DNA of 64,000 nt, taken from Candidatus Bathyarchaeota archaeon (GTDB lineage: Archaea; Thermoproteota; Bathyarchaeia; TCS64). Below, piece after piece: positions 18,918 to 34,703 of this stretch; positions within the stretch are counted from its first letter, which is position 1; each line of letters starts with the position of its first letter. The notes beneath the pieces were generated by a model, which saw only the letters and a program-made list of their open reading frames with translations, made no database searches and was not told where the DNA came from. Position numbers and translations under genes: made by a program. The stretch spans positions 29,852 through 93,851 of the forward strand of contig CAVYLP010000003.1 in the NCBI GenBank assembly GCA_963769425.1. Reading direction: 5' to 3'.

Positions 18918-19951
18918 TTGGTTAGAAAATACGTAACTCCTATAATGGTAAAAATCACATCTGTGTCTGATAACACATTGGAAAAAGTAGGCGAACCTTC
19001 ATTAAAGCAATACTTGAACCAAATCATTGACTACGTAAAGACAAAAGAACAACCCAACAAACAAATTACCTCAAATAAACTCGTAGAAACACTCTTCGAC
19101 ACACTACTCTCACACGACTTCTGCTACCTAACGAGAACCCAAGTCGTACCCTACACATCGCAGATAATCGACGCATTCCAATCCGCAACACAGAAAAACA
19201 AACCACTACCCATGTACCTTGACCTCGGGCCCGGATACCACGCAGCCCTTGAAAAAAGCGACCCAAGACGCCTCTCCTTCGAGGTAGACCTAGGAGAACT
19301 CCTAGTTCTATATCAGATGAGAAAATTCATCAATAGAGTAAATAAAATCTATCCACCCGGGGCTGAGTTCAACATTATAATTGACAACGTGTGCGCTGTC
19401 TACGTAAACGACATCAACACTAAGGAAACGGAGCACTACTGCAGCCGATTCAGGGAACTAATAAGAGAGATGAATATGGAGGACCATGTAAAACTCCTCG
19501 TCGAATCGGAGCACTTCAACGTATCAGACTATGATGTTAAACCAATCCCCGAAGATGAAATAAAATCCTACGAACTCACAAAAGATGAACATGAAAACGT
19601 CGAACGATTCATTGGGCGCGCCTGCTCCAAAGAAGAGGCAATTAGGAGAATACTAACATACAAACAGATAGGAGACAGAACAGATGAGTTATTCTACAGC
19701 TTTTTCCAACACGGAGTACACATGACACAGAGAGCCTCAAAGCACAACGATAAGCTTCAGACCATTCCCAGGAGGCGACTCTAGGATACAGAGCCGGAAA
19801 AGTCGTCCTCGGCATCAACAACAGAAACAAAGTGTATCCCTTCCTGTTAACCAGCACCAACTACGAAAAATTCGTATATGAGAGCTTCACCTTCCCGGAG
19901 ATTCAACCGAAGGCAATTCGAGAAATAACGTTCGCTCACCCATCATAAATA
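18918..19951 (+). pseudogene. Hypothetical protein with tentative similarity to the DIT1/PvcA (isonitrile synthase) family. The C-terminus continues in another frame.
   Basis: The main ORF ends at TAG 19782-19784. The adjacent frame continues as GYRAGKVVLGINNRNKVYPFLLTSTNYEKFVYESFTFPEIQPKAIREITFAHPS. The segment IYPPGAEFNIIIDNVCAVYVNDI recalls the PvcA/IsnA core from memory only. Confidence 0.35.
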
Positions 19952-20169: not shown

Positions 20170-20279
20170 TTGGTGCCGGGAATGGGAATTGAACCCATGG
20201 TCTCTATCCGGCTAAGGCACTGGTGCCTATAACCTCTGGATCATGAGTCCAGCGCATTAGCCAAGCTATGCTACCCCGG
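20170..20279 (-). tRNA. tRNA-Met/Ile2 (anticodon CAT) with an approximately 31-nt intron at a non-canonical position (variable-loop / T-arm junction). CCA is genome-encoded.
   Basis: Minus-strand read GCCGGGG-TA-GCAT-AGCTTGGCTA-ATGC-G-CTGGA-CTCATGA-TCCAG-[AGGTT...GAGACC insert]-ATGGG-TTCAATT-CCCAT-TCCCGGC-A-CCA. The acceptor, D, anticodon and T stems all pair. The extra 31 nt contains a GGCAC-CA-GTGCC hairpin. Confidence 0.6.
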
Positions 20280-20319
20280 CCCTTCTGACCCATACACACT
20301 GCACAAATTTAAATCCTGA

Positions 20320-22218: not shown

Positions 22219-23492
22219 GCGCGCTGCCTTGTCCCGAAATTAACGGCCAAACACCAATCCCTCGAGCAAGGAGACATAAAATCAACTCACAAAAACCACT
22301 AAGCCACATCAACCCCTCCGAAGCCCACAAAACACCCACAACAGACTACACCCCCAGAACCCCAAACCCACTACCCACTAGCCACCCCCACCAGAAACCC
22401 CTCAGACGAGACCCTCACACGTTGAAGAACGTAGGCGAAACAGCCTTCTCAGGCCGACCCAGACACTCAGCCGCCTCACGAACCAGCACGACACAGAGCA
22501 GGCTCAGCAACGCATACACCGAAACGCATCCCAGCCTCCTCACATTGTTCACGGTCAAACCGTACTGGGTCTTCAGCCAGCTGAACACCGACTCCACCAG
22601 CGGACGCTTATGGTACTCGGCCACGAGCCCAGGTGGACCGTGAGTCCTGAACCTACGATCAACCCTCAGAATCCCCTCACCTCTCTGGTTAGCAGTATAC
22701 GGAATCACCGAATCAGAGACGAGACCCCTCACCGCCGAGCTACTGTACTGGCTGTCCGCCACCAGGCTCCTCACCAACCCGCCGGCCCTAACCAGCACCG
22801 CCCTGGCCTTCTCAACCAAGCCTGGAGCGTGCTTCTTCTCGTTGTCGTTAGCGGGAGCCAGCAGAGTGGCTAAGGGAAGCATCGTTTTGTGGTCCACCGC
22901 GACGTGGAGTTTGTAGCCGAGGTCGTAGCCCCTGCCGTTCCTGCCCACTAGGGCGTCTGGGTCAGAGTACGCGACCCTGCTGTTATCCGGGTGCCTGATG
23001 CTCCGTGCCTTGATGAAGCTCGCATCCAGGAGCACATCGACCTCAGGGGCTCTGAATCTGAGGAGTTTGACCACCTTCTCCTCGAGGATGAGCTGGAGGA
23101 CGTCGGATCCGACCCGCTTCGTGAATCTGCTGATGACGGATCTGGGGTAGCCTCTCTGTTTCCCGTATATGAGGCAGAGCCGTCTGAGTCGCCGGTCGAC
23201 GTCGAGGATCCGGGTGAGCTCGCGGAGGCTTCGGATGCCTTTCAGCCTCATTATGAGGAGGGCTCTTAGGATTCCGAGTGGGTTTCTGGGTGGTCTGCCG
23301 GCTCCGGTTGTGTGGTAGCAGCCGATGAGTTGTTTTTGGGCAATGCTTAAGTCGACGTTTCTGAAGAGTGTTTCAAGGGTCTCGTGTTCGTCCTGTCCTA
23401 ACGGACTCGACCTCCTCTGGTTCCCGCCATGGGTGACGAGACCCTAACTTTCAAGATAAACTTGTCTCGAATTTAGGGACAAGGCAGCGCGC
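22219..23492 (-). mobile_element. IS4/IS5-family insertion sequence (about 1.27 kb) with 22-bp imperfect terminal inverted repeats
   Basis: Left end gcgcgctgccttgtcccgaaat (22219-22240). The reverse complement of the right end atttagggacaaggcagcgcgc (23471-23492) is gcgcgctgccttgtccctaaat, matching 20 of 22 positions. The DDE transposase ORF lies inside. A CA-rich 3' segment (22300-22400) resembles copy 2 at 46000-46100. Confidence 0.7.
22415..23251 (-). CDS. DDE transposase, IS4/IS5 family (278 aa from ATG; the frame stays open about 190 nt further upstream without a start codon)
   Basis: Segments DASFIKA, HVAVD, VADSQYSS and ESVFSWLK (DDE, with the E in the xxxFxWxK-like region). Confidence 0.7.
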   Translation of the reverse strand: MRLKGIRSLRELTRILDVDRRLRRLCLIYGKQRGYPRSVISRFTKRVGSDVLQLILEEKVVKLLRFRAPEVDVLLDASFIKARSIRHPDNSRVAYSDPDALVGRNGRGYDLGYKLHVAVDHKTMLPLATLLAPANDNEKKHAPGLVEKARAVLVRAGGLVRSLVADSQYSSSAVRGLVSDSVIPYTANQRGEGILRVDRRFRTHGPPGLVAEYHKRPLVESVFSWLKTQYGLTVNNVRRLGCVSVYALLSLLCVVLVREAAECLGRPEKAVSPTFFNV

Positions 23493-25813: not shown

Positions 25814-27331
25814 TTAATTTCCGATTATTCCATCAATCGCTTCCTCGAGATCGCCCGCGGCCTTCTCTAGTTTTCTCCTCTTCTCCATGATGTATACTGA
25901 GTCTTCCTCGATCTTTCTCTGGCTGAGGCCAATCTCTTCTAGGACTCTCACTGGGGCAGGACCACCGATGAGTGTTCGTCGATACACCATCTTCCGTGGA
26001 TCCATAGCCTCCTGAATGATTTGGGTCGATAGCCCCAGATTCCTTCCATAGTCGGGATACATCGTTGCAGCTTCGTCAAGATTCTCCTCCGTGACCTGGC
26101 TGGGTTTCACTCCACGTTCGACACCTACCCTGACAAGTGTCGCGACTATCTGATGGGCGGTCCTCCACGATAATCCCTTCTCGCGCACAACGGCTGCGGC
26201 GAGGTCAGACGCCCCCGCCCAGTGGGCACCAGCTAACTCTTCAGCGCGGGAGGAATCTATCTTCAGGGTGCTTAAAATTCCAGGGATCATTCTCAGCCCA
26301 TTGTTGATGTCGGTCCAGGATCTGTGCATCCCATCGACGGAGTCTGCTCCCAGCATCCTTGACTTGACGTTGACTGTCAGGTCAGCTAAGAATCTGAGGG
26401 CCGTGGGATTTCTCTTCTGCGGCATTATGCTGCTTGTTCCGCAGTACCTGTCGGCTGGGTCGACAAGTCCGAACTCGTTCGAGCTAAAGATGAGCATGTC
26501 GTAGAACAGACCGCTGATAACGTGGCTCAGAGTGAGGAGGACGGCGAAGCTGTCCAGTGTGTACCACTCGTGTTTCTCGGCGTCGTAGCAGTTCCTGTAC
26601 AGCGCGTCGAAGCCTAGGAGGTCCATGGTGCGATGTCGGTCGAATCCAGGGATGTCGGTTCCCGTGCCAATCGCCGAGCCCGCGGGGCTGATCTGGGACA
26701 GATCGTAGGCGGCCTCAAGTTTTCTCTGCTCCCTTTCGAGCTGATTGAGGAAGGCCATCGCGTAGAACCCGAGCGTCATAGGCTGAGCATGCTGGAGGAT
26801 GTAGCTTGAGCCATAGACTGTCAGCCCTGGAGAGTACATCGGCCAGATGGTTTCCACGTGTTTCTCCGCAAAGTCAGCTAAGGCCATCCTAACGGTGGTG
26901 AGCAACTCCATGGCTTCGAGGATGTATTCGCGCTGTGTGATGTGTTGGCTCACCGTGGCGAGGTCTCCAGTACTTCTCCCGATGTGGATTCGACCTCCGA
27001 CCTCCCAGCCAAGCTTCTCAATCAGGTAGGATTCACCCGAGTGGTCAACTCCGCCAACTCTGACGCGTTCCGCCAAAACACCCTCCGCCTCCATCTCCCT
27101 GAAGGCTCTGAGGATCGCCGCTCCGTCGCCCTTCGGAATTATGCCCTGTTCGGTGAGCATAACGGTGTGGGCCTTGTCGAACATGTGGTAGGCGAGGTAG
27201 GGTGGGGTCTTCTCCCACCCCTTTTCCGCTCTCTGGAACTCAGGCGCCATCGGCTCTGTGAGGCGGCCGACTCCGGGCCTCATCGCGAACCATAGGTGAC
27301 CTCTGTACCTGTACTCCTCTTTCTTCTCCAA
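25814..27331 (-). CDS. argH: Argininosuccinate lyase
   Basis: Fumarate-lyase signature GTSSIMPQKRNP. Overall layout matches ArgH. Confidence 0.85.
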   Translation of the reverse strand: MEKKEEYRYRGHLWFAMRPGVGRLTEPMAPEFQRAEKGWEKTPPYLAYHMFDKAHTVMLTEQGIIPKGDGAAILRAFREMEAEGVLAERVRVGGVDHSGESYLIEKLGWEVGGRIHIGRSTGDLATVSQHITQREYILEAMELLTTVRMALADFAEKHVETIWPMYSPGLTVYGSSYILQHAQPMTLGFYAMAFLNQLEREQRKLEAAYDLSQISPAGSAIGTGTDIPGFDRHRTMDLLGFDALYRNCYDAEKHEWYTLDSFAVLLTLSHVISGLFYDMLIFSSNEFGLVDPADRYCGTSSIMPQKRNPTALRFLADLTVNVKSRMLGADSVDGMHRSWTDINNGLRMIPGILSTLKIDSSRAEELAGAHWAGASDLAAAVVREKGLSWRTAHQIVATLVRVGVERGVKPSQVTEENLDEAATMYPDYGRNLGLSTQIIQEAMDPRKMVYRRTLIGGPAPVRVLEEIGLSQRKIEEDSVYIMEKRRKLEKAAGDLEEAIDGIIGN

Positions 27332-29219: not shown

Positions 29220-29529
29220 ATGTGGAGATTCGTAGTCTGCGGATATTTCAGTTGCGCGCGAATGACTCTCTTATTTTTAATAAAAGTGTCAAGTCAGACT
29301 CGCAAGTGAAAACGTTAGTATGGGGCTTCCCCCCGCTACTTTTAATAAATTTATGAATATTATCCAGTTCAACTACACATTCAGAACTCGAATATGCAGA
29401 AGAGGAGAAAAATCTCGCATCCTGTCGCGCACGCGTAAGGATTATGGGGTTGCGTATATTATGTGCTGGTCATCCTCGCACGCTTGCCGTCTCATACACT
29501 TTTTAAAATTCAATTCTCAATACAGAATC

Positions 29530-29844
29530 ATGAATGCCGAAGCATTTGACGATGAGGGATTTCTAATCAACGCCAATCTATGGACCAAAGAACTATCAAA
29601 GAGTATGGCTAAGACCCAATTCGACATAACCCTCACCGACCAACAGACAAAGATCATCCTTTACATCAGAGACTACTACAAAAAATGGGAGACACTACCA
29701 ATGCTTAAAACAATCAGAGACGAATTCGACCTAACCACATCAGAGATAGATGAACAATTCAAGAGAGGCAGCAGCACAGCGAGGGGAGTAATATGCAAAC
29801 TCGCCGGGTTACCAAAGATGCTATGCATAGCCTCAGGATGCTGA
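29530..29844 (+). CDS. TusE/DsrC-family sulfur-relay protein (about 105 aa from the internal Met; annotated ORF 29320..29844)
   Basis: C-terminal ...KLAGLPKMLCIASGC is close to the DsrC/TusE tail (…AGLPKPTGC…) with a penultimate-arm Cys. The internal LTDQQTKIILYIRDYYKKWETLP is DsrC-like. Confidence 0.55.
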   Translation: MNAEAFDDEGFLINANLWTKELSKSMAKTQFDITLTDQQTKIILYIRDYYKKWETLPMLKTIRDEFDLTTSEIDEQFKRGSSTARGVICKLAGLPKMLCIASGC

Positions 29845-29851
29845 GCGAACA

Positions 29852-30205
29852 ATGAGCGAAGAGCTATTGCTGGTATACGGCTGGGGACCGGAGGAGGATG
29901 GAAAACTCTCATCCCTCCTCTACATAGCAGAGACGGGGATATCGATGGGCATGAATACCTCGATCTTTCTCTTCACAGAAGCGGCGATCCTCGCCAAACA
30001 GGGTAACATCCAGAAGGTAAGCGTGGAAATGGACTCCAGGTTCAGACGAATCACAAACGACCCCAGGCTCAGGGTATATGTGTGCGAAGAGGCGGCAAGG
30101 AAGCGTGGGTTAACACGTGATAACATCGAGGAAAAAATCAGCCTTATTGGGTACGCCACCTTCCTTGACATAGCTACAAAAACTAAGACTGTGATAACAA
30201 TTTAG
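29852..30205 (+). CDS. DsrE/DsrF/TusD-like protein (117 aa)
   Basis: Conserved YVCEEAARKRGL Cys motif. Size matches. It starts 8 nt after the TusE-like gene. Confidence 0.55.
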   Translation: MSEELLLVYGWGPEEDGKLSSLLYIAETGISMGMNTSIFLFTEAAILAKQGNIQKVSVEMDSRFRRITNDPRLRVYVCEEAARKRGLTRDNIEEKISLIGYATFLDIATKTKTVITI

Positions 30206-30219
30206 GGGATAGATAAACG

Positions 30220-30612
30220 ATGATTGTGAAAAAGGTGAAGGAAGTCAAGGACTTCGACGTCAAGGAGGCGTATGGGCAGGATGCTGAGGGAGTATCGATC
30301 AGGTGGATCTCTGAGAAACGCACGGGCGGGGATGAGTATCTGCACAACTTCGCACTCAGATACTTCACCTTCAAGCCTAATGCCTACATGAATCCTCATA
30401 AGCATCCGTGGGAGCAGGAGATCGCCGTCACGAAGGGAAGGATTCAGGTTTTAGGAGCTGCCAATGTTCAGATTCTGAATGAGGGAGATGTAGGATATTT
30501 CCCGGCGAATGAGGTGCATGGTTTCAAGAATCTCTCTAATGGAGATAGCGAGTTCTATTGTGTGATTGGGTGTGTTGGGAAGGGTGAAAACTGTCTGGGC
30601 ATACAGGGCTAA
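30220..30612 (+). CDS. Cupin-domain protein (130 aa)
   Basis: PHKHPWEQEIAVTKG and EVHGFKN form the two cupin His/Glu motifs. Confidence 0.6.
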   Translation: MIVKKVKEVKDFDVKEAYGQDAEGVSIRWISEKRTGGDEYLHNFALRYFTFKPNAYMNPHKHPWEQEIAVTKGRIQVLGAANVQILNEGDVGYFPANEVHGFKNLSNGDSEFYCVIGCVGKGENCLGIQG

Positions 30613-30779
30613 AAAACATTATAGTTGGCTAATTAATTGAATCTCTTCATTCATTACCTACTTATTTGACTTGATTATGTTCTTGATGCCGAAGTATTGT
30701 AAATGAAAAAAAGATAGCGATTCTTAACCTAGCATCTTAACTAAAAGGATTTAATAGAGAAGGGTTAAAATCGGGCTCC

Positions 30780-31817
30780 GTGTTGAAGCCGTTGGTATCC
30801 ACCATGAAGGGGAAGGCGCTCGCACTCATCTCCGGGGGGCTCGACAGCACCCTCGCTGTGAAGATGGTGAAGGAGATGGGGCTCGAGGTCGAGGCTGTTC
30901 ACTTCACCACCCCATTCTGCCAGTGCGACAAGTGCAGCGTCGACACCACCGCGGAGCAGCTAGACCTCAAGGTCCACAACGTCTTCCTCGGGGAGGAGTT
31001 CCTCTCGATCGTCGTCGACCCGCCCCACGGCAGGGGCAGCCACATGAATGTCTGCATCGACTGCCGCATACTCATGCTCAGGAAGGCGAAGACCCTCGCC
31101 GAGCAGATAGGCGCGGGCTTCTTCGTCACCGGCGAGGTTCTCGGGCAGCGCCCCATGAGCCAGCATGGGTCGGCCATGCGCCTCATAGAGCGAGAGGCGG
31201 GCGTCGAGGACCTGGTACTCAGGCCACTCTCGGGCAAGCTCATGAAGGAGACGCGCATGGAGGACGAGGGAATCGTCGACCGCGACGACCTACTGGAGAT
31301 CAGTGGCAGGAGGAGGCTTCCGCAGTTCGAGCTCGCGGAGAAGCTGGGCGTCTACGACTACCCGTGCCCATCTGGCGGCTGCCTCCTAACCGACCCCGAG
31401 TTCGCCTCAAGGCTTCGGGACTACATCGACAACGAGGGCACGCCAACGATCGAGTCGATACTGCTCCTCAAGGTCGGCAGACACTTCAGGGCGAGGGAGA
31501 CACGCATCGTCGTCGGCAGGAACGAACTCGAGAACAATATTCTCGAGGGCTTCGCACAGAGAGGCGGAACGCGCCTCGAGGTCGAGGGGATAAACGGCCC
31601 CGTCACCCTTGTCATGGGATACGACGAATCCGCCATCAACGCCGCAGCCAAGCTCACCGCAAGATACTCGGATGCACCCAGAGACACACAAGTATGGGTA
31701 AAGGTCACGTCAAGCGCCTCCAAGAGCAGGCAACAAGTGGAGACCGTGGACGACTATACGCTTGAGTCTCTCAGGATCAAAGGCGCGAAGATCCGGTCCA
31801 AGAATACAGGCGTCTAA
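30780..31817 (+). CDS. PP-loop ATP pyrophosphatase of the ThiI/tRNA-sulfurtransferase type (no THUMP domain). Its likely start is M at 30807.
   Basis: LISGGLDSTLA (SGGxDS PP-loop). VCIDCRILMLRKAKTLAEQIGAGFFVTGEVLGQRPMSQ matches the ThiI catalytic-Cys / GExxGQxxSQ region. Confidence 0.6.
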   Translation: MLKPLVSTMKGKALALISGGLDSTLAVKMVKEMGLEVEAVHFTTPFCQCDKCSVDTTAEQLDLKVHNVFLGEEFLSIVVDPPHGRGSHMNVCIDCRILMLRKAKTLAEQIGAGFFVTGEVLGQRPMSQHGSAMRLIEREAGVEDLVLRPLSGKLMKETRMEDEGIVDRDDLLEISGRRRLPQFELAEKLGVYDYPCPSGGCLLTDPEFASRLRDYIDNEGTPTIESILLLKVGRHFRARETRIVVGRNELENNILEGFAQRGGTRLEVEGINGPVTLVMGYDESAINAAAKLTARYSDAPRDTQVWVKVTSSASKSRQQVETVDDYTLESLRIKGAKIRSKNTGV

Positions 31818-32932: not shown

Positions 32933-33841
32933 ATGATCAAAAGTAATAGAAGTAGATTGATACAAACCCAGGTTATGGCACAAATAGCGCCTCCAATTCT
33001 TGAGTCACAAGCTGGTTTCAATGGGGGCTATCTAACAACGTGGGATGGGAGGGCAAAGCACGGTGCTGGCCCTGGAGGTATCAAATATAACGTAAGATTG
33101 GGATCACCATGTTTGGGTTGGCCAGAGACGGAGTATCTTGAACCTGGGGTATCATTAAAAGAGGTTGAGGCAAAGGCTGCACCATATCAGAATCCCTCCA
33201 GCTTTTCGACTACTATGCATACGGTATGCTGTCTAGGCAATGAAGCTAGACTTGTATCCGGGGACGCAAAGAGTAGAAAAGGTGTAATTATAGGTAAGAG
33301 CGATAGACACGTCCTCGCTGAATTCTCTGATAAGATACTTGAGGACCTCACGATTGGTGACCATGTTCGTATCATAGCTGAAGGTGTGGGACTCGAAGTT
33401 GAGGGCTTTGAAGGCAGCGTCTTTAACATGTCAGGAGAATTTCTCGACTCATTAAATCTAAGTTTGAATGGGGGAAAACTTGTATTCCCTGTCGCCAAAA
33501 TCATTCCGGCTTATGCTATGGGAAGTGGGGTCGGTGGATCAGAGGCCCAGAGGGGTAACTTTAGTATTCAGAGTAATCCGCCGGAGCTTGTTGAGGAACT
33601 AGGAATTGCGGATTTGAAGATGGGTGATTTCGTTGCTCTCAAGGACATTCTGATGCATTATGGGAAGGCTTACCATAGAGGTGCGATTACGGTAGGTGTA
33701 GTGATGACTGGAGCGAGTGATAACGCTGGGCATGGTCCTGGTGTACTGGCGCTTGCTTCATCAAAACCTGGTATGATCCTCCCCGACGTAGATAGATCAG
33801 CAAACCTAAGGCGCTACATCGATGTGACCTACTATGATTGA
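32933..33841 (+). CDS. Uncharacterised protein, paralog A (302 aa)
   Basis: Full-length similarity to 33834..34703. Shared motifs are DGxxxxGxGPGG/NG, GxPCxGW, CxGNEA, SGDAK, GDxVxxK, MGSG and GHGPGV. Confidence 0.6.
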   Translation: MIKSNRSRLIQTQVMAQIAPPILESQAGFNGGYLTTWDGRAKHGAGPGGIKYNVRLGSPCLGWPETEYLEPGVSLKEVEAKAAPYQNPSSFSTTMHTVCCLGNEARLVSGDAKSRKGVIIGKSDRHVLAEFSDKILEDLTIGDHVRIIAEGVGLEVEGFEGSVFNMSGEFLDSLNLSLNGGKLVFPVAKIIPAYAMGSGVGGSEAQRGNFSIQSNPPELVEELGIADLKMGDFVALKDILMHYGKAYHRGAITVGVVMTGASDNAGHGPGVLALASSKPGMILPDVDRSANLRRYIDVTYYD

Positions 33842-34703
33842 GACCAATAAGGATCGACTCGTAAAGGTTGCCGTAATGGGCGAGGTTAATATGCCTTGGG
33901 CTAATGAGACCTACTCCACGGCGTTCGATGGTTCACCAAGAATTGGGAATGGACTTAGGCTTGGTATGAATGGAGTAAAATGTAACATCAAGATAGGTGA
34001 CCCATGCGCTGGCTGGGTTGAGGGTGAGCACGTAGAGCCTGGAGTGAGCGTCGCGAACCCAGATAATTTGCAGAACAACGCTCTCGCAGTACTCGCGTGT
34101 GTTGGCAACGAAGCCACGGTAAAATCCGGGGATGCCAAGGGAGCTAATGGAGTAATAACCGGTAAACACGGTCCATTTCATGTCCACTTCCGCGCAAAAG
34201 ATAAAGCGAACATCTCGATCGGCGATAAGGTCCAGTTCAAGGCTTGGGGGGTTGGATTAAAGATCAAAGGTTATGAAGATGTGAATATACATAAGTGCGG
34301 ACCAGAACTTCTCGAAAAAATGGGGATAGAGATCAAAAATGGTCGACTGCTTGTGCCAGTCGTCGCTGAGTTCCCTGCCGAGATCATGGGATCAGGCTAT
34401 GGTATGTCCCCACACTCAATCGACTACGACATCCAGAGCACGTGCCCAGATGTTGCTGTTGAGCTGGGTGTAGATAGGCTGCGCCTCGGCGACTTCGTTG
34501 TTTTAAGGGACCAGTTAAACGATTATGGTAGGGGATATTACAAGGGTGCAGTTAGTATAGGAGTCGTAATCCACGGCTGGAGTAATCACCCGGGACATGG
34601 ACCAGGCGTAACTACGTTAATCAGCGCGAGACCTGGCAGGGTAATGACCACAATCAATCCTGAAGCCAACATCGTTAATGCCCTAAATCTTAGTTTGGAT
34701 TAA
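33834..34703 (+). CDS. Uncharacterised protein, paralog B (289 aa). Its start overlaps the end of paralog A by 8 nt.
   Basis: See paralog A. Tight overlap indicates co-translation. Confidence 0.6.
   Translation: MIETNKDRLVKVAVMGEVNMPWANETYSTAFDGSPRIGNGLRLGMNGVKCNIKIGDPCAGWVEGEHVEPGVSVANPDNLQNNALAVLACVGNEATVKSGDAKGANGVITGKHGPFHVHFRAKDKANISIGDKVQFKAWGVGLKIKGYEDVNIHKCGPELLEKMGIEIKNGRLLVPVVAEFPAEIMGSGYGMSPHSIDYDIQSTCPDVAVELGVDRLRLGDFVVLRDQLNDYGRGYYKGAVSIGVVIHGWSNHPGHGPGVTTLISARPGRVMTTINPEANIVNALNLSLD

What the first reader, a model, noticed from the sequence alone, without database searches (positions are those of the whole stretch)
29320..31817. Compact sulfur-relay cluster: TusE/DsrC-like, DsrE-like, cupin, ThiI-type PP-loop ATPase
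Four co-directional, tightly spaced genes (gaps of 8, 15 and about 170 nt) combine a DsrC/TusE-type Cys-tail protein, a DsrE/TusD-type persulfide carrier and a stand-alone ThiI-like PP-loop adenylyltransferase with no THUMP domain. This is a Tus-like thiolation pathway in an unusual subunit combination (no TusBCD trimer, an added cupin). It may thiolate tRNA or make a thio-cofactor, with the cupin acting as a sulfur or oxygen-handling partner. The argH and peptidase genes upstream are unrelated.
Basis: partly seen in the sequence, partly recalled or inferred. Interest (0 to 1): 0.5.

Follow-up and report, generated by a model that had tools for sequence, protein, structure and literature searches.

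The report
Bathyarchaeal DsrC–DsrE–cupin sulfur-carrier module
The four genes are real, but they are two units: a three-gene sulfur-carrier cassette (variant DsrC, orphan DsrE, cysteine-rich metal cupin) of unknown chemistry, conserved in Bathyarchaeia archaea, next to a common tRNA-thiolation-type enzyme that is rarely its neighbour.

Summary
The four co-directional genes exist and the family calls hold (DsrC/TusE, DsrE, cupin, ThiI-like PP-loop). Two corrections apply. Gene 1 starts at 29530, not 29320. The PP-loop protein is not stand-alone: it carries a C-terminal NFACT-R_2 RNA-binding domain. It belongs to the large ThiI+DUF814 family, predicted in 2014 to be a THUMP-less 4-thiouridine synthase.

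The four-gene block is not a conserved unit. Across 77 related loci, almost all labelled Bathyarchaeia, the only recurrent genes are DsrC*, DsrE* and cupin*, always in that order. The PP-loop gene is adjacent in 3 loci, and its own close homologues sit in unrelated neighbourhoods.

The trio has a sharp signature:
- DsrC* has an invariant lengthened three-Cys arm ending in Cys.
- DsrE* keeps only the active-site Cys78 and is nearly orphan in sequence space.
- Cupin* is TM1459-like, with three His ligands, His58 replaced by Gln, and an invariant Cys triad at the active-site cavity.

Best reading: an autonomous relay, DsrE* to DsrC* arm to the cupin metal/Cys site. The relay steps are inferred, not shown. 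The PP-loop enzyme is probably a separate Fe-S-type tRNA thiolase. This is a new variant of a known kind, of moderate interest.

The parts
29500..29508 (+). TATA-like box (TTTTTAAAA) 22-30 nt upstream of the DsrC* ATG. Putative archaeal promoter of the three-gene operon, with a short or absent leader.
   Evidence: The sequence (c/t)TTTTTAAAAttc is conserved at the same distance in the window and in L013-L018. Its function is inferred.
29530..29844 (+). DsrC* : a TusE/DsrC/DsvC-family protein of 104 aa with an invariant lengthened C-terminal arm, RGVICKLAGLPK(M/L)LCI(A/S)SGC-COOH. Cys89 corresponds to DsrC CysB. Cys99 is an extra cysteine. Cys104 is the last residue.
   Evidence: Pfam DsrC 4.7e-16 and TIGR03342 54.6 bits against a cut-off of 53.5. 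PDB DsrC 2v4j_C, E = 1.7e-8. Fourteen homologues at 51-86% identity keep all three Cys.
29794..29841 (+). Codons for the DsrC* Cys arm: C89 at 29794-29796, C99 at 29824-29826, C104 at 29839-29841, followed by the stop codon.
   Evidence: Invariant columns of alignment A1. Compared with the canonical CK(L/M)AGLPKPTGCV tail.
29852..30205 (+). DsrE* : a single-Cys DsrE-fold protein of 117 aa. Cys78 (30083-30085) sits at the DsrE/TusD active-site position. The N-terminal motif YGWGPEE(D/E)G(K/R)LSSLLY is invariant.
   Evidence: Pfam DsrE 3e-9. The family profile matches S. solfataricus DsrE3A (3mc3) at E = 3.3e-10 with the Cys aligned. Only 9 hits at E < 1e-3 among 1.84 billion cluster representatives.
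30220..30612 (+). Cupin* : a TM1459-like metal cupin of 130 aa. H60, H62 and H100 are invariant. Gln66 replaces the fourth His ligand of TM1459. The C-terminal triad C114-x3-C118-x6-C125 (30559-30594) is invariant.
   Evidence: Profile against TM1459 (1vj2), E = 4.7e-20. AF2 model pLDDT 86; Foldseek TM-score 0.77-0.9 to TM1459. Invariant columns. TM1459 ligands and Cys106 geometry from PMC5031596.
30613..30779 (+). AT-rich spacer of 167 nt (GC 0.31) between cupin* and the PP-loop gene. It probably holds the end of the trio transcript and a separate promoter.
   Evidence: Composition, sequence. A short stretch just upstream of the PP-loop start is shared with L016. The function is inferred.
30780..31817 (+). 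ThiI-like PP-loop ATPase fused to a C-terminal NFACT-R_2 RNA-binding domain (ThiI+DUF814 family). The PP-loop SGGLDS is at 30831-30848. The CXXC motif (C92, C95) is at 31053-31064 and C201 at 31380-31382. The NFACT-R_2 domain spans 31476-31748. It is adjacent to the conserved module but not part of it. The true start may be the ATG at 30804.
   Evidence: Pfam ThiI 8.6e-14 and NFACT-R_2 4e-19. At least 7967 homologues. Invariant Cys are C47, C49, C52, C92, C95 and C201. Fold matches to ThiI and to RqcH/FBPS. Residues 1-9 have pLDDT < 50.

Best explanation
The region holds two separate functional units.

Unit 1 (29530-30612) is a self-contained three-gene operon, found almost only in genomes labelled Bathyarchaeia, that encodes a protein-bound sulfur relay built around a small metalloenzyme. 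The proposed mechanism is as follows. A homo-oligomeric DsrE* carries sulfane sulfur, as a persulfide or possibly a thiosulfonate, on Cys78. It passes that sulfur to the terminal Cys104 of the lengthened arm of DsrC*, with Cys99 and Cys89 acting as resolving or relay thiols. The flexible arm then enters the TM1459-like cavity of cupin*. There a three-His(/Gln) metal centre, flanked by Cys114, Cys118 and Cys125, processes or receives the sulfur.

Shown here: gene order and conservation, the fold and family of each protein, and the position and invariance of the cysteines and metal ligands.
Inferred: every transfer step, its direction, the metal, and the chemistry at the cupin.

Unit 2 (30780-31817) is a member of the ThiI+NFACT-R family. 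It most likely adenylates a tRNA uridine and thiolates it (predicted s4U) using a CXXC+C iron-sulfur site. It has its own promoter and generally does not depend on Unit 1.
For: 1. Conservation. All 10 genome loci found with the DsrC* tail motif are labelled Bathyarchaeia/Bathyarchaeota and carry DsrC*-DsrE*-cupin* in the same order. Among 80 metagenome loci found with cupin*, DsrE* is upstream in 62 of 75 with room and DsrC* in 57 of 69. ORF clustering over 77 trio loci finds no other widely recurrent neighbour; cupin* is in 77, DsrE* in 75 and DsrC* in 68, and flanks otherwise differ.

2. The PP-loop gene is not part of the unit. Its homologues at 83%, 83%, 78% and 57% identity have no DsrC, DsrE or cupin neighbour. 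It is adjacent in only 3 of 77 trio loci. Its family is about 100 times larger: at least 7967 clusters against 62 for DsrC* and about 84 for cupin*. In the window a 167-nt AT-rich spacer separates it from the trio, and its GC3 is 0.83 against 0.51-0.62.

3. Relay chemistry is plausible. DsrE* Cys78 aligns with the active-site Cys of DsrE3A (3mc3) and of other DsrE-fold proteins. DsrE-Cys78 to DsrC terminal-Cys transfer is experimentally established and one-directional in A. vinosum (PMC3397948). The DsrC* arm and its three Cys are invariant from 51% to 99% identity.

4. The cupin is the centre of the module. It is the most conserved of the three (55-95% identity against 40-86% for DsrE*). DsrC* and DsrE* were never seen without it in about 14 DsrC*-anchored loci, whereas about 15 loci have cupin* alone. 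Its Cys114 equals TM1459 Cys106, which lies 3.1 A from metal ligand His58 and lines the cavity, as does the TM1459 C-terminus, where C118 and C125 sit in cupin*.

5. The PP-loop protein has the GRxRxxQ and TxxE motifs and the CXXC plus internal Cys described for ThiI+DUF814. Archaeal rhodanese-less ThiI/TtuI enzymes with CXXC+C bind a [4Fe-4S] cluster and use inorganic sulfide in vitro (PMC9825150). A homologue, P0025, carries an extra BFD-like [2Fe-2S] domain.
Against: - No experiment or structure shows any sulfur transfer, complex formation or metal content for these proteins. The cupin's reaction is unknown, and so is the natural function of its closest solved relative, TM1459.
- The closest solved DsrE relative, DsrE3A, carries thiosulfonate rather than persulfide (PMC4175335). 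The species carried here is therefore uncertain.
- About 15 loci have cupin* with an intact Cys triad but no DsrE* or DsrC* within several kb. The cupin can therefore work without adjacent carriers.
- PP-loop adjacency occurs in two different arrangements: tandem in the window and L016, convergent in L080 with 56 nt between the stops. That is more than the roughly 0.1 chance adjacencies expected over about 70 loci, so some functional link to tRNA thiolation cannot be dismissed.
- The donor that loads DsrE* is unidentified.
- The C92/C95/C201 to CXXC+C equivalence rests on spacing and family description, not on a residue-level alignment.
Confidence: 0.5

Rival explanations
1. All four genes form one Tus-like thiolation pathway: DsrE* passes sulfur to DsrC* (playing TusE), which passes it to the ThiI-NFACT-R enzyme (playing MnmA) for tRNA or cofactor thiolation, with the cupin as an accessory.
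For: - TusD-to-TusE-to-MnmA is the textbook precedent (summarised in PMC3397948).
- ThiI+DUF814 proteins lack a rhodanese domain and associate with the carrier TusA in bacteria, so an external carrier is plausible.
- The PP-loop gene abuts the trio in the window, in L016 (tandem) and in L080 (convergent). That is two arrangements among about 70 loci, against roughly 0.1 expected by chance.
Against: - Adjacency is absent from 74 of 77 trio loci, including close relatives of the window such as L013 (88% DsrC* identity), L014, L015, L017 and L050.
- PP-loop homologues at 57-83% identity sit in unrelated contexts.
- The PP-loop family is about 100 times larger than the trio families.
- The enzyme has a CXXC+C signature. 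Archaeal rhodanese-less ThiI/TtuI enzymes with this motif work with a [4Fe-4S] cluster and free sulfide in vitro.
- This model gives no role to the best-conserved member, the cupin.
Confidence: 0.17
2. The cupin is the sulfur source rather than the sink. It mobilises sulfur from a small organosulfur or inorganic substrate at its metal site, captures it on its Cys triad, and hands it via DsrE* to DsrC*. DsrC* then serves several biosynthetic acceptors, occasionally including ThiI-NFACT-R. The trio would be a substitute for cysteine desulfurase plus TusA in low-sulfide habitats.
For: - DsrE-to-DsrC transfer is one-directional in vitro, and DsrC/TusE are normally the last carriers that dock onto enzymes. 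That leaves the cupin as the only candidate upstream of DsrE* within the module.
- No TusA, rhodanese or IscS gene lies near any trio.
- Cupin-fold C-S lyases exist. DMSP lyase DddK is among the structural and profile matches.
- Record titles point to peat and permafrost (SPRUCE, Chersky) for some carriers.
Against: - No cupin is known to generate protein persulfides, and the literature search found none.
- Solo cupins exist without carriers.
- The cavity is hydrophobic like that of TM1459 and shows no recognisable Cys or organosulfur binding motif.
- No acceptor is conserved nearby.
Confidence: 0.13
3. The trio is a sensor or regulator, or a thiol-stress device, rather than a biosynthetic or catabolic relay. 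DsrC* uses its helix-turn-helix-like core as an RspA-type regulator switched by arm-Cys oxidation or persulfidation. The cupin acts as a ligand or metal sensor, comparable to an AraC-type ligand-binding cupin.
For: - There are weak LexA_DNA_bind (E = 0.007) and AraC_binding (E = 5.7e-5) matches.
- One sub-lineage of about 16 loci places the trio convergent to DnaJ-DnaK-GrpE.
- In L023 a DUF134/sigma70_r4-like regulator gene is inserted between DsrE* and cupin*.
Against: - Invariant metal ligands and a TM1459-type catalytic cavity argue for an enzyme.
- The invariant active-site Cys in DsrE* argues for transfer chemistry.
- The HTH and AraC hits are below the curated thresholds or generic to the folds.
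- No conserved target operon lies next to the trio.
Confidence: 0.08
4. The trio handles a soft metal or metalloid (for example Hg, As, Cu or Ni). The mobile Cys-rich arm of DsrC* and the Cys triad of the cupin would act as metal shuttles, by analogy with the C-terminal Cys pair of MerA (an analogy drawn from general knowledge).
For: There are seven invariant Cys across three small proteins, plus a His-rich metal site. A P-type ATPase with a YHS domain lies near the PP-loop gene in L005 and L006, but that is not near any trio.
Against: No metal transporter, MerR/ArsR regulator or reductase recurs near the trio. The DsrE and DsrC folds are known only as sulfur carriers.
Confidence: 0.04

Closest known systems
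E. coli TusBCD-TusE-MnmA 2-thiouridine sulfur relay
   Same: A DsrE-fold carrier with an active-site Cys at position 78 sits next to a TusE/DsrC-family protein with a C-terminal Cys arm. A PP-loop tRNA-thiolation-type ATPase is nearby in this window.
   Different: - There is one DsrE-fold gene instead of three paralogues (TusB, TusC, TusD).
- DsrE* and DsrC* score far below the TusD, TusB and TusE equivalog cut-offs.
- DsrC* has three Cys and a longer arm.
- The PP-loop enzyme is ThiI-like, not MnmA, and is usually unlinked.
- A cupin is the constant third partner.
- There is no TusA or IscS.
DsrEFH-DsrC-DsrAB system of sulfur oxidisers and sulfate reducers
   Same: The DsrE-to-DsrC pairing. 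DsrC* retains the CysB-equivalent (Cys89), which is otherwise typical of organisms that have DsrAB. The idea of a flexible arm carrying sulfur into a metalloenzyme pocket is also shared.
   Different: - No dsrAB or dsrMK lies within 8 kb of any trio.
- In one lake-sediment MAG study, dsrAB was confined to non-Bathyarchaeia phyla.
- The arm is C-x9-C-x4-C ending at Cys, instead of C-x10-C followed by one residue.
- The candidate docking enzyme is a 130-aa cupin, not a sirohaem reductase.
Archaeal DsrE3A / DsrE2B-TusA thiosulfonate carriers (Metallosphaera cuprina; S. solfataricus SSO1125 = PDB 3MC3)
   Same: This is the closest solved relative of DsrE* (E = 3.3e-10, active-site Cys aligned). 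It is a single-gene, homotrimeric archaeal DsrE.
   Different: - DsrE3A has a Cys-x7-Cys pair, whereas DsrE* has only the first Cys.
- DsrE3A is linked to TusA, Hdr-like genes and dihydrolipoamide dehydrogenase. DsrE* is linked to DsrC* and a cupin.
TM1459, the Mn-cupin of Thermotoga maritima (PDB 1VJ2)
   Same: The same fold (TM-score 0.77-0.9, rmsd 1.7 A, about 31% identity). The same cavity-lining residues: R47, F49, W64, I68, F102, F112, C114 and I116 correspond to R39, F41, W56, I60, F94, F104, C106 and I108. Three of the four His ligands are shared.
   Different: - His58 is replaced by Gln66.
- A C-terminal extension carries two further invariant Cys (C118, C125).
- Cupin* has a constant genomic partnership with sulfur carriers.
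- The natural function of TM1459 is unknown, so it offers no functional transfer.
ThiI+DUF814 (NFACT-R) family, predicted alternative tRNA 4-thiouridine synthase (Burroughs and Aravind 2014, PMC4075521)
   Same: The window's PP-loop protein has this architecture (ThiI-like PP-loop plus NFACT-R_2), the CXXC plus internal Cys, and the GRxRxxQ and TxxE motifs. It lacks THUMP and rhodanese domains.
   Different: - The 2014 paper describes it mainly in bacteria and a few thaumarchaeota, with TusA as the only conserved neighbour.
- Here it is in Bathyarchaeia, with no TusA nearby and only sporadic adjacency to a DsrC/DsrE/cupin trio.
- The searched literature held no experimental test of the family.

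Membership tests
TusE/DsrC/DsvC family (PF04358, TIGR03342) | The sequence profile match reaches the curated cut-off | tested here: met
   PF04358 59.6 bits against 24.9. TIGR03342 54.6 against 53.5, which is a marginal pass. PDB DsrC 2v4j_C, E = 1.7e-8.
TusE/DsrC/DsvC family (PF04358, TIGR03342) | [quoted passage not shown] | tested here: not met
   The arm ends ...LCIASGC-COOH. The Cys is the last residue, 15 residues after CysB instead of 11, and an extra Cys99 lies between them. This pattern is invariant in 14 homologues. The rule is stated in PMC3397948.
Bona fide DsrC (dissimilatory) | A second Cys (CysB) about 10 residues upstream, together with DsrAB in the organism | tested here: inconclusive
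   The CysB equivalent (Cys89 in CKLAGLPK) is present. No dsrAB lies within 8 kb in any locus. Whole genomes could not be scanned.
TusE (E. coli-type, NF008562) | The equivalog profile score | tested here: not met
   24.6 bits against a cut-off of 191.
TusBCD / DsrEFH heterohexamer | Three adjacent DsrE-fold paralogues (E/D, F/C, H/B) | tested here: not met
   There is only one DsrE-fold gene in the window and in every related locus. TusD scores 22.4 against 89.25 and TusB 26.6 against 49.2.
DsrE superfamily (PF02635) | The fold profile match plus an active-site Cys at the DsrE/TusD Cys78 position | tested here: met
   PF02635 37.5 bits against 22.7. Cys78 is invariant and aligns with the conserved Cys of 3mc3, 2qs7 and 3pnx.
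DsrE3A subgroup | A Cys-x7-Cys motif and linkage to dihydrolipoamide dehydrogenase, Hdr and TusA | tested here: not met
   The second Cys is absent (CEEAARKRG). No such neighbours were found.
Canonical ThiI/TtuI (TIGR00342) | An N-terminal ferredoxin-like domain plus a THUMP domain, then the PP-loop domain; the equivalog score | tested here: not met
   There is no THUMP hit. TIGR00342 scores 56.2 against 264.5 and only its PP-loop part matches (positions 171-314).
ThiI+DUF814 (NFACT-R_2) family | A ThiI-like PP-loop domain fused to a DUF814/NFACT-R domain | tested here: met
   PF02568 at residues 10-152 (8.6e-14) and PF18297 at residues 233-323 (4e-19). All 120 top homologues share both domains. 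The fold search matches ThiI and RqcH/FBPS.
ThiI+DUF814 (NFACT-R_2) family | The SGGxDS PP-loop, CxxC plus an internal Cys, GRxRxxQ and TxxE motifs, and two conserved Arg in the NFACT-R part | tested here: met
   SGGLDS at 18-23. C92-I-D-C95 and C201 are invariant. G176-RRRLP-Q182 and T158-RM-E161 are present. R234, R237 and R247 are invariant. Motifs are as listed in PMC4075521.
ThiI+DUF814 (NFACT-R_2) family | A conserved TusA neighbour (the bacterial context) | tested here: not met
   There is no TusA gene next to the gene in the window or in L001-L007.
ThiI+DUF814 (NFACT-R_2) family | Catalysis of tRNA s4U formation | not testable with these tools
   This is a prediction only. No experimental paper was found.
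TM1459-like Cupin_2 | The cupin barrel with four His metal ligands (H52, H54, H58, H92) | tested here: inconclusive
   The fold and three His are conserved (H60, H62, H100). The fourth position is Gln66, nearly invariant. The metal is unknown.

The most novel reading that the evidence does not exclude
Cupin* is a previously unrecognised kind of metalloenzyme whose substrate is sulfur carried on a protein arm. The lengthened three-Cys tail of DsrC* would insert into a TM1459-type cavity, where a three-His metal site and an active-site Cys triad oxidise, reduce or transfer the sulfur. That would make it a 130-residue, non-sirohaem functional counterpart of the DsrC-DsrAB partnership. In the reverse direction it would be a cupin-type sulfur mobiliser replacing cysteine desulfurase and TusA. 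Either role would be in archaea that have not been shown to carry DsrAB.
Probability: 0.2. Interest if true: 0.75.

Novelty: new variant of a known kind. Interest (0 to 1): 0.45.

Why it matters
DsrC/TusE and DsrE proteins are the core carriers of cytoplasmic sulfur trafficking. So far they are known to end either at DsrAB (energy metabolism) or at MnmA (tRNA).

A third, tightly conserved end-point partner would widen the repertoire of protein-persulfide chemistry. Here that partner is a small metal cupin with cysteines in its active-site cavity. It would also give a first functional lead for the TM1459-type cupins, which are much used as artificial-metalloenzyme scaffolds but have no known natural role.

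Bathyarchaeia are abundant, uncultured sediment and peat archaea whose sulfur metabolism is inferred only from gene lists. A defined, testable three-protein module is a practical entry point, because all three proteins are small and should be easy to express.

Separately, the result warns against reading the neighbouring ThiI-NFACT-R gene as part of the same pathway. It also places that family, still untested experimentally in the literature searched, firmly in Bathyarchaeia.

Tried and rejected
1. Four-gene operon. I looked at neighbourhoods of PP-loop homologues and of DsrC* and cupin* homologues. I then ran tblastn and ORF clustering over 107 fetched loci. The PP-loop gene is not a conserved member.

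2. A partner sulfur donor. Pfam scans of 20 further ORFs between 14 and 46 kb found no rhodanese, TusA, IscS or SufS. ORF clustering found no recurrent extra gene. The ABC-ATPase cluster is paralogue noise, and DnaJ-DnaK-GrpE is synteny within one sub-lineage.

3. Distant DsrE* relatives that might carry functional hints. An exhaustive phmmer search of 1.84 billion representatives returned only 9 hits. The non-family hits have E of about 1e-4, so this was a dead end.

4. A distant cupin* relative, P0270 (32% identity, Cys triad kept). Its neighbour is a metallo-beta-lactamase-fold gene, with no DsrE or DsrC. This is a single case and was not pursued.

5. Solo-cupin loci. No informative shared partner was found.

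6. Defence-system reading. PADLOC gave no meaningful hit.

7. RNA elements. Rfam found only a tRNA at 20174-20280.

8. The bacterial sigma-70 promoter and terminator scan is not applicable to an archaeon and was uninformative.

9. Literature. No paper combines DsrE, DsrC and cupin, none links cupins to persulfide transfer, and none tests ThiI+DUF814 experimentally.

10. L025 appeared to lack DsrC*. The region is masked with N, and the last 22 codons of the tail are visible. This is masking, not absence.

11. P0123, which looks like a cupin-DsrC fusion, is a gene-call read-through from an unrelated upstream cupin across the promoter region on a 678-nt contig.

Full report
**Observation.** The window carries four co-directional + strand ORFs at 29320/29530-29844, 29852-30205, 30220-30612 and 30780-31817. 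The gaps are 7, 14 and 167 nt. Pfam and NCBIfam assign them to four families, each above the curated cut-off:
- DsrC/TusE: PF04358 59.6 bits; TIGR03342 54.6 against 53.5.
- DsrE: PF02635 37.5 bits.
- Cupin_2: 51.1 bits.
- ThiI-type PP-loop: PF02568 52.0 bits.

Two details needed correcting. First, the DsrC-like gene starts at 29530. All homologues are 104 aa and begin there. A TATA-like TTTTTAAAA box at 29500-29508 lies inside the supposed N-terminal extension and is conserved at the same distance in relatives. Second, the PP-loop protein is not stand-alone. Residues 233-323 form an NFACT-R_2 (formerly DUF814) domain (E = 4e-19). An AF2 model (pLDDT 86) matches ThiI structures with its N-terminal half and RqcH/FBPS C-terminal regions with its C-terminal half. 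The argH-like lyase and M28 peptidase upstream are on the opposite strand and never recur in related loci.

**The PP-loop protein.** It belongs to the ThiI+DUF814 family described by Burroughs and Aravind in 2014 (PMC4075521). That family is a THUMP-less, rhodanese-less ThiI-like PP-loop fused to an NFACT-R RNA-binding domain. Its phyletic distribution is almost mutually exclusive with canonical ThiI, TusA is its only conserved neighbour in bacteria, and it is predicted to make 4-thiouridine. The window's protein has the following features:
- SGGLDS at residues 18-23.
- An invariant C92-x2-C95 plus C201.
- A further invariant C47-x-C49-x2-C52.
- GRRRLPQ (the GRxRxxQ motif) and TRME (the TxxE motif).
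- Invariant arginines in the NFACT-R part.

The family is huge: at least 7967 clusters at E <= 1e-3, and the top 120 all have both domains. Archaeal rhodanese-less ThiI/TtuI enzymes with a CXXC+C motif bind a [4Fe-4S] cluster and thiolate tRNA with inorganic sulfide in vitro (PMC9825150). One homologue, P0025, even carries an added BFD-like [2Fe-2S] domain. My equation of C92, C95 and C201 with that motif rests on spacing and on the 2014 family description, not on a residue-level alignment. I found no experimental test of the family.

**Is the four-gene block a unit?** It is not. PP-loop homologues at 83% (P0002), 83% (P0010), 78% (P0024) and 57% (P0084) identity lie in four unrelated neighbourhoods with no DsrC, DsrE or cupin gene. 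DsrC* homologues at 86%, 84% and 52% identity all sit in a DsrC-DsrE-cupin trio with different flanks and no PP-loop gene.

A scan of one genome for each of 185,579 species with the DsrC* tail motifs found 10 loci. All are labelled Bathyarchaeia or Bathyarchaeota, and all carry the trio. Only L016 has the PP-loop gene downstream. A metagenome scan with the cupin* profile gave 80 loci:

| Feature | Loci with the feature | Loci with room to see it |
|---|---|---|
| DsrE* upstream of cupin* | 62 | 75 |
| DsrC* upstream of cupin* | 57 | 69 |
| PP-loop gene within 8 kb downstream | 1 (L080) | 52 |

In L080 the PP-loop gene is convergent with the trio, with 56 nt between the stop codons. ORF clustering over 77 trio loci found no other widely recurrent neighbour. 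The exceptions are paralogue noise and one sub-lineage in which the trio lies next to DnaJ-DnaK-GrpE. In the window, the spacer before the PP-loop gene is AT-rich (GC 0.31), and the gene's GC3 is 0.83 against 0.51-0.62 for the trio.

The adjacency in 3 of 77 loci comes in two arrangements. That is more than the roughly 0.1 I would expect by chance, so an occasional functional link is not excluded. It is not the conserved design.

**Anatomy of the trio: DsrC*.** It matches solved DsrC structures (2v4j_C, E = 1.7e-8). Its arm is RGVICKLAGLPK(M/L)LCI(A/S)SGC-COOH and is invariant from 51% to 99% identity. Compared with the canonical CK(L/M)AGLPKPTGCV:
- It keeps the CysB position (Cys89).
- It is four residues longer.
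- It has an extra Cys99.
- It ends at Cys104 rather than having a penultimate Cys.

According to PMC3397948, the penultimate Cys is strictly conserved in the family, and CysB is otherwise almost confined to organisms with DsrAB. No dsrAB lies near any trio. In one lake-sediment MAG study dsrAB was confined to non-Bathyarchaeia phyla.

**Anatomy of the trio: DsrE*.** It has a single invariant Cys78. This aligns with the active-site Cys of S. solfataricus DsrE3A (3mc3, E = 3.3e-10) and of other DsrE-fold structures. DsrE3A is a homotrimer (PMC4175335), which supports a homo-oligomeric DsrE*. DsrE* lacks DsrE3A's second Cys. It is almost orphan in sequence space, with only 9 hits at E < 1e-3 among 1.84 billion cluster representatives.

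**Anatomy of the trio: cupin*.** It is the best conserved of the three. Its closest solved relative is the Mn-cupin TM1459 (profile E = 4.7e-20; Foldseek TM-score 0.77-0.9, rmsd 1.7 A).
- It keeps TM1459 ligands H52, H54 and H92 as H60, H62 and H100.
- It replaces H58 with Gln66.
- It keeps the cavity residues R39, F41, W56, I60, F94, F104, C106 and I108.
- It adds a C-terminal extension with invariant C118 and C125.

In TM1459, Cys106 is 3.1 A from His58, and the C-terminus lines the active-site cavity (PMC5031596). The C114-x3-C118-x6-C125 triad is therefore an active-site feature, not a remote zinc knuckle. A 32%-identical outlier, P0270, still has it.

**Mechanism.** The shown facts are the fold of each protein, the position and invariance of seven cysteines and three histidines, the fixed gene order with 6-60 nt gaps, and the independence from other genes. 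From the established DsrE-Cys78 to DsrC terminal-Cys transfer, which is one-directional in vitro, I infer the following sequence:
1. DsrE* is loaded by an unidentified donor.
2. DsrE* passes sulfane sulfur, or a thiosulfonate as in DsrE3A, to the DsrC* arm.
3. The arm delivers it into the cupin* cavity.
4. The metal and the Cys triad act on it.

The asymmetry of occurrence argues that the carriers serve the cupin. DsrC* and DsrE* were never seen without cupin*, while about 15 loci have cupin* alone with its triad intact. What the cupin does chemically (oxidation, reduction, or transfer to a small molecule) cannot be decided here. The natural function of TM1459 is also unknown.

I put about 0.85 on the two-unit architecture and about 0.35-0.4 on the specific relay-to-cupin mechanism, which gives 0.5 overall.

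**Rivals.**
1. The TusE-MnmA precedent and the rare but repeated adjacency favour it. Non-conservation, the size disparity between the families, the probable Fe-S/sulfide chemistry of the enzyme, and the lack of any role for the cupin count against it.
2. The cupin as sulfur source upstream of DsrE*, with DsrC* serving several acceptors (0.13).
3. A thiol- or sulfur-sensing regulatory device (0.08).
4. Soft-metal handling (0.04).

**Comparison and membership.** The module works like a Tus/Dsr relay but is not a member of TusBCD-TusE. It has one DsrE paralogue, and its equivalog scores are far below the cut-offs. It is not DsrEFH-DsrC-DsrAB either. DsrC* passes the family HMM but fails the penultimate-Cys rule. 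DsrE* is in the DsrE superfamily but in none of the DsrE to DsrE5 groups as defined by motif and linkage. The PP-loop protein fails canonical ThiI membership (no THUMP; 56 bits against 264.5) but meets every sequence feature of ThiI+DUF814 except the TusA neighbour.

**Novelty and interest.** No paper in the searched library combines DsrE, DsrC and a cupin or links a cupin to persulfide transfer. The trio is a new variant of a known kind of system, a cytoplasmic sulfur relay. It has an unprecedented third partner, a distinctive DsrC arm, and a distribution almost confined to Bathyarchaeia. The exceptions are one trio locus labelled Nitrososphaeria (L023) and one cupin* homologue labelled Geothermarchaeales. 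Interest is moderate (0.45). It offers a clear, cheap experimental target and a possible first natural role for TM1459-type cupins, but the chemistry is unknown and the clade is narrow. The neighbouring ThiI-NFACT-R gene is an ordinary member of a described, though untested, family.

**Limits.**
- Whole genomes could not be profiled.
- No multimer modelling was possible.
- Promoter and terminator statements for this archaeon are inferred from sequence conservation only.
- Taxon labels come from record titles.

Noticed in passing
window 20174-20280 (-): Rfam finds a 107-nt tRNA (55.5 bits), presumably an intron-containing archaeal tRNA. ARAGORN found no tRNA in the window.
   Followed up: no
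window 22415-23251 (-): A DDE_Tnp_1 transposase ORF (E = 4.8e-17). It lies about 6 kb upstream of the cluster, in a region of patchy composition.
   Followed up: no
window 32933-33841 and 33834-34703 (+): Two tandem DUF4438 paralogues overlapping by 8 nt, each with both the N- and C-terminal domains. Their function is unknown, and they are absent from the other trio loci.
   Followed up: partly
window 25814-27331 (-): An argininosuccinate-lyase-like protein scores below the argH cut-off (213.8 against 279.5). Its second-best match is XcbC of bacterial coenzyme M synthesis (188.7). It may be a diverged fumarase/aspartase-superfamily lyase rather than ArgH.
   Followed up: no
window 1-64000: GC content swings from 0.245 (1-2000) to 0.62 (52-54 kb) within one 64-kb window. 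That is unusually mosaic for a single genome stretch.
   Followed up: no
window 18918-19784 (+): An ORF with a partial DIT1_PvcA (isonitrile/dityrosine synthesis) match, E = 1.1e-8.
   Followed up: no
P0025 (homologue of window 30780-31817): A 400-aa ThiI-NFACT-R homologue (76% identity) carries an additional PF04324 BFD-like [2Fe-2S]-binding domain. This is consistent with iron-sulfur chemistry in the family.
   Followed up: no
L027 1723-2898: The most distant cupin* relative, P0270 (32% identity, also a DMSP_lyase Pfam hit), keeps the C-x3-C-x6-C triad. A metallo-beta-lactamase-fold gene follows directly, with no DsrE or DsrC.
   Followed up: partly
L073, L082, L083, L085, L090-L104 (about 16 loci), about 0.4-4.3 kb downstream of cupin*: In one sub-lineage (cupin* 61-68% identical) the trio lies convergent to a DnaJ-DnaK-GrpE chaperone operon.
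   Followed up: no
L023 6595-8396 and L024: In a contig labelled Nitrososphaeria, a DUF134/sigma70_r4-like regulator gene is inserted on the opposite strand between DsrE* and cupin*.
   Followed up: no
L080 7272-9439: The ThiI-NFACT-R gene lies convergent to the trio, with 56 nt between the stop codons. This is a second, different arrangement of the adjacency seen in the window and L016.
   Followed up: partly
L052, L053, L055, L059, L061, L062, L064, L070, L076, L078, L079, L084, L093, L026: Cupin* homologues (55-74% identity, Cys triad intact) stand alone, with no DsrE* or DsrC* within several kb. Six of them share a downstream 173-aa ORF of unknown function on the opposite strand.
   Followed up: partly
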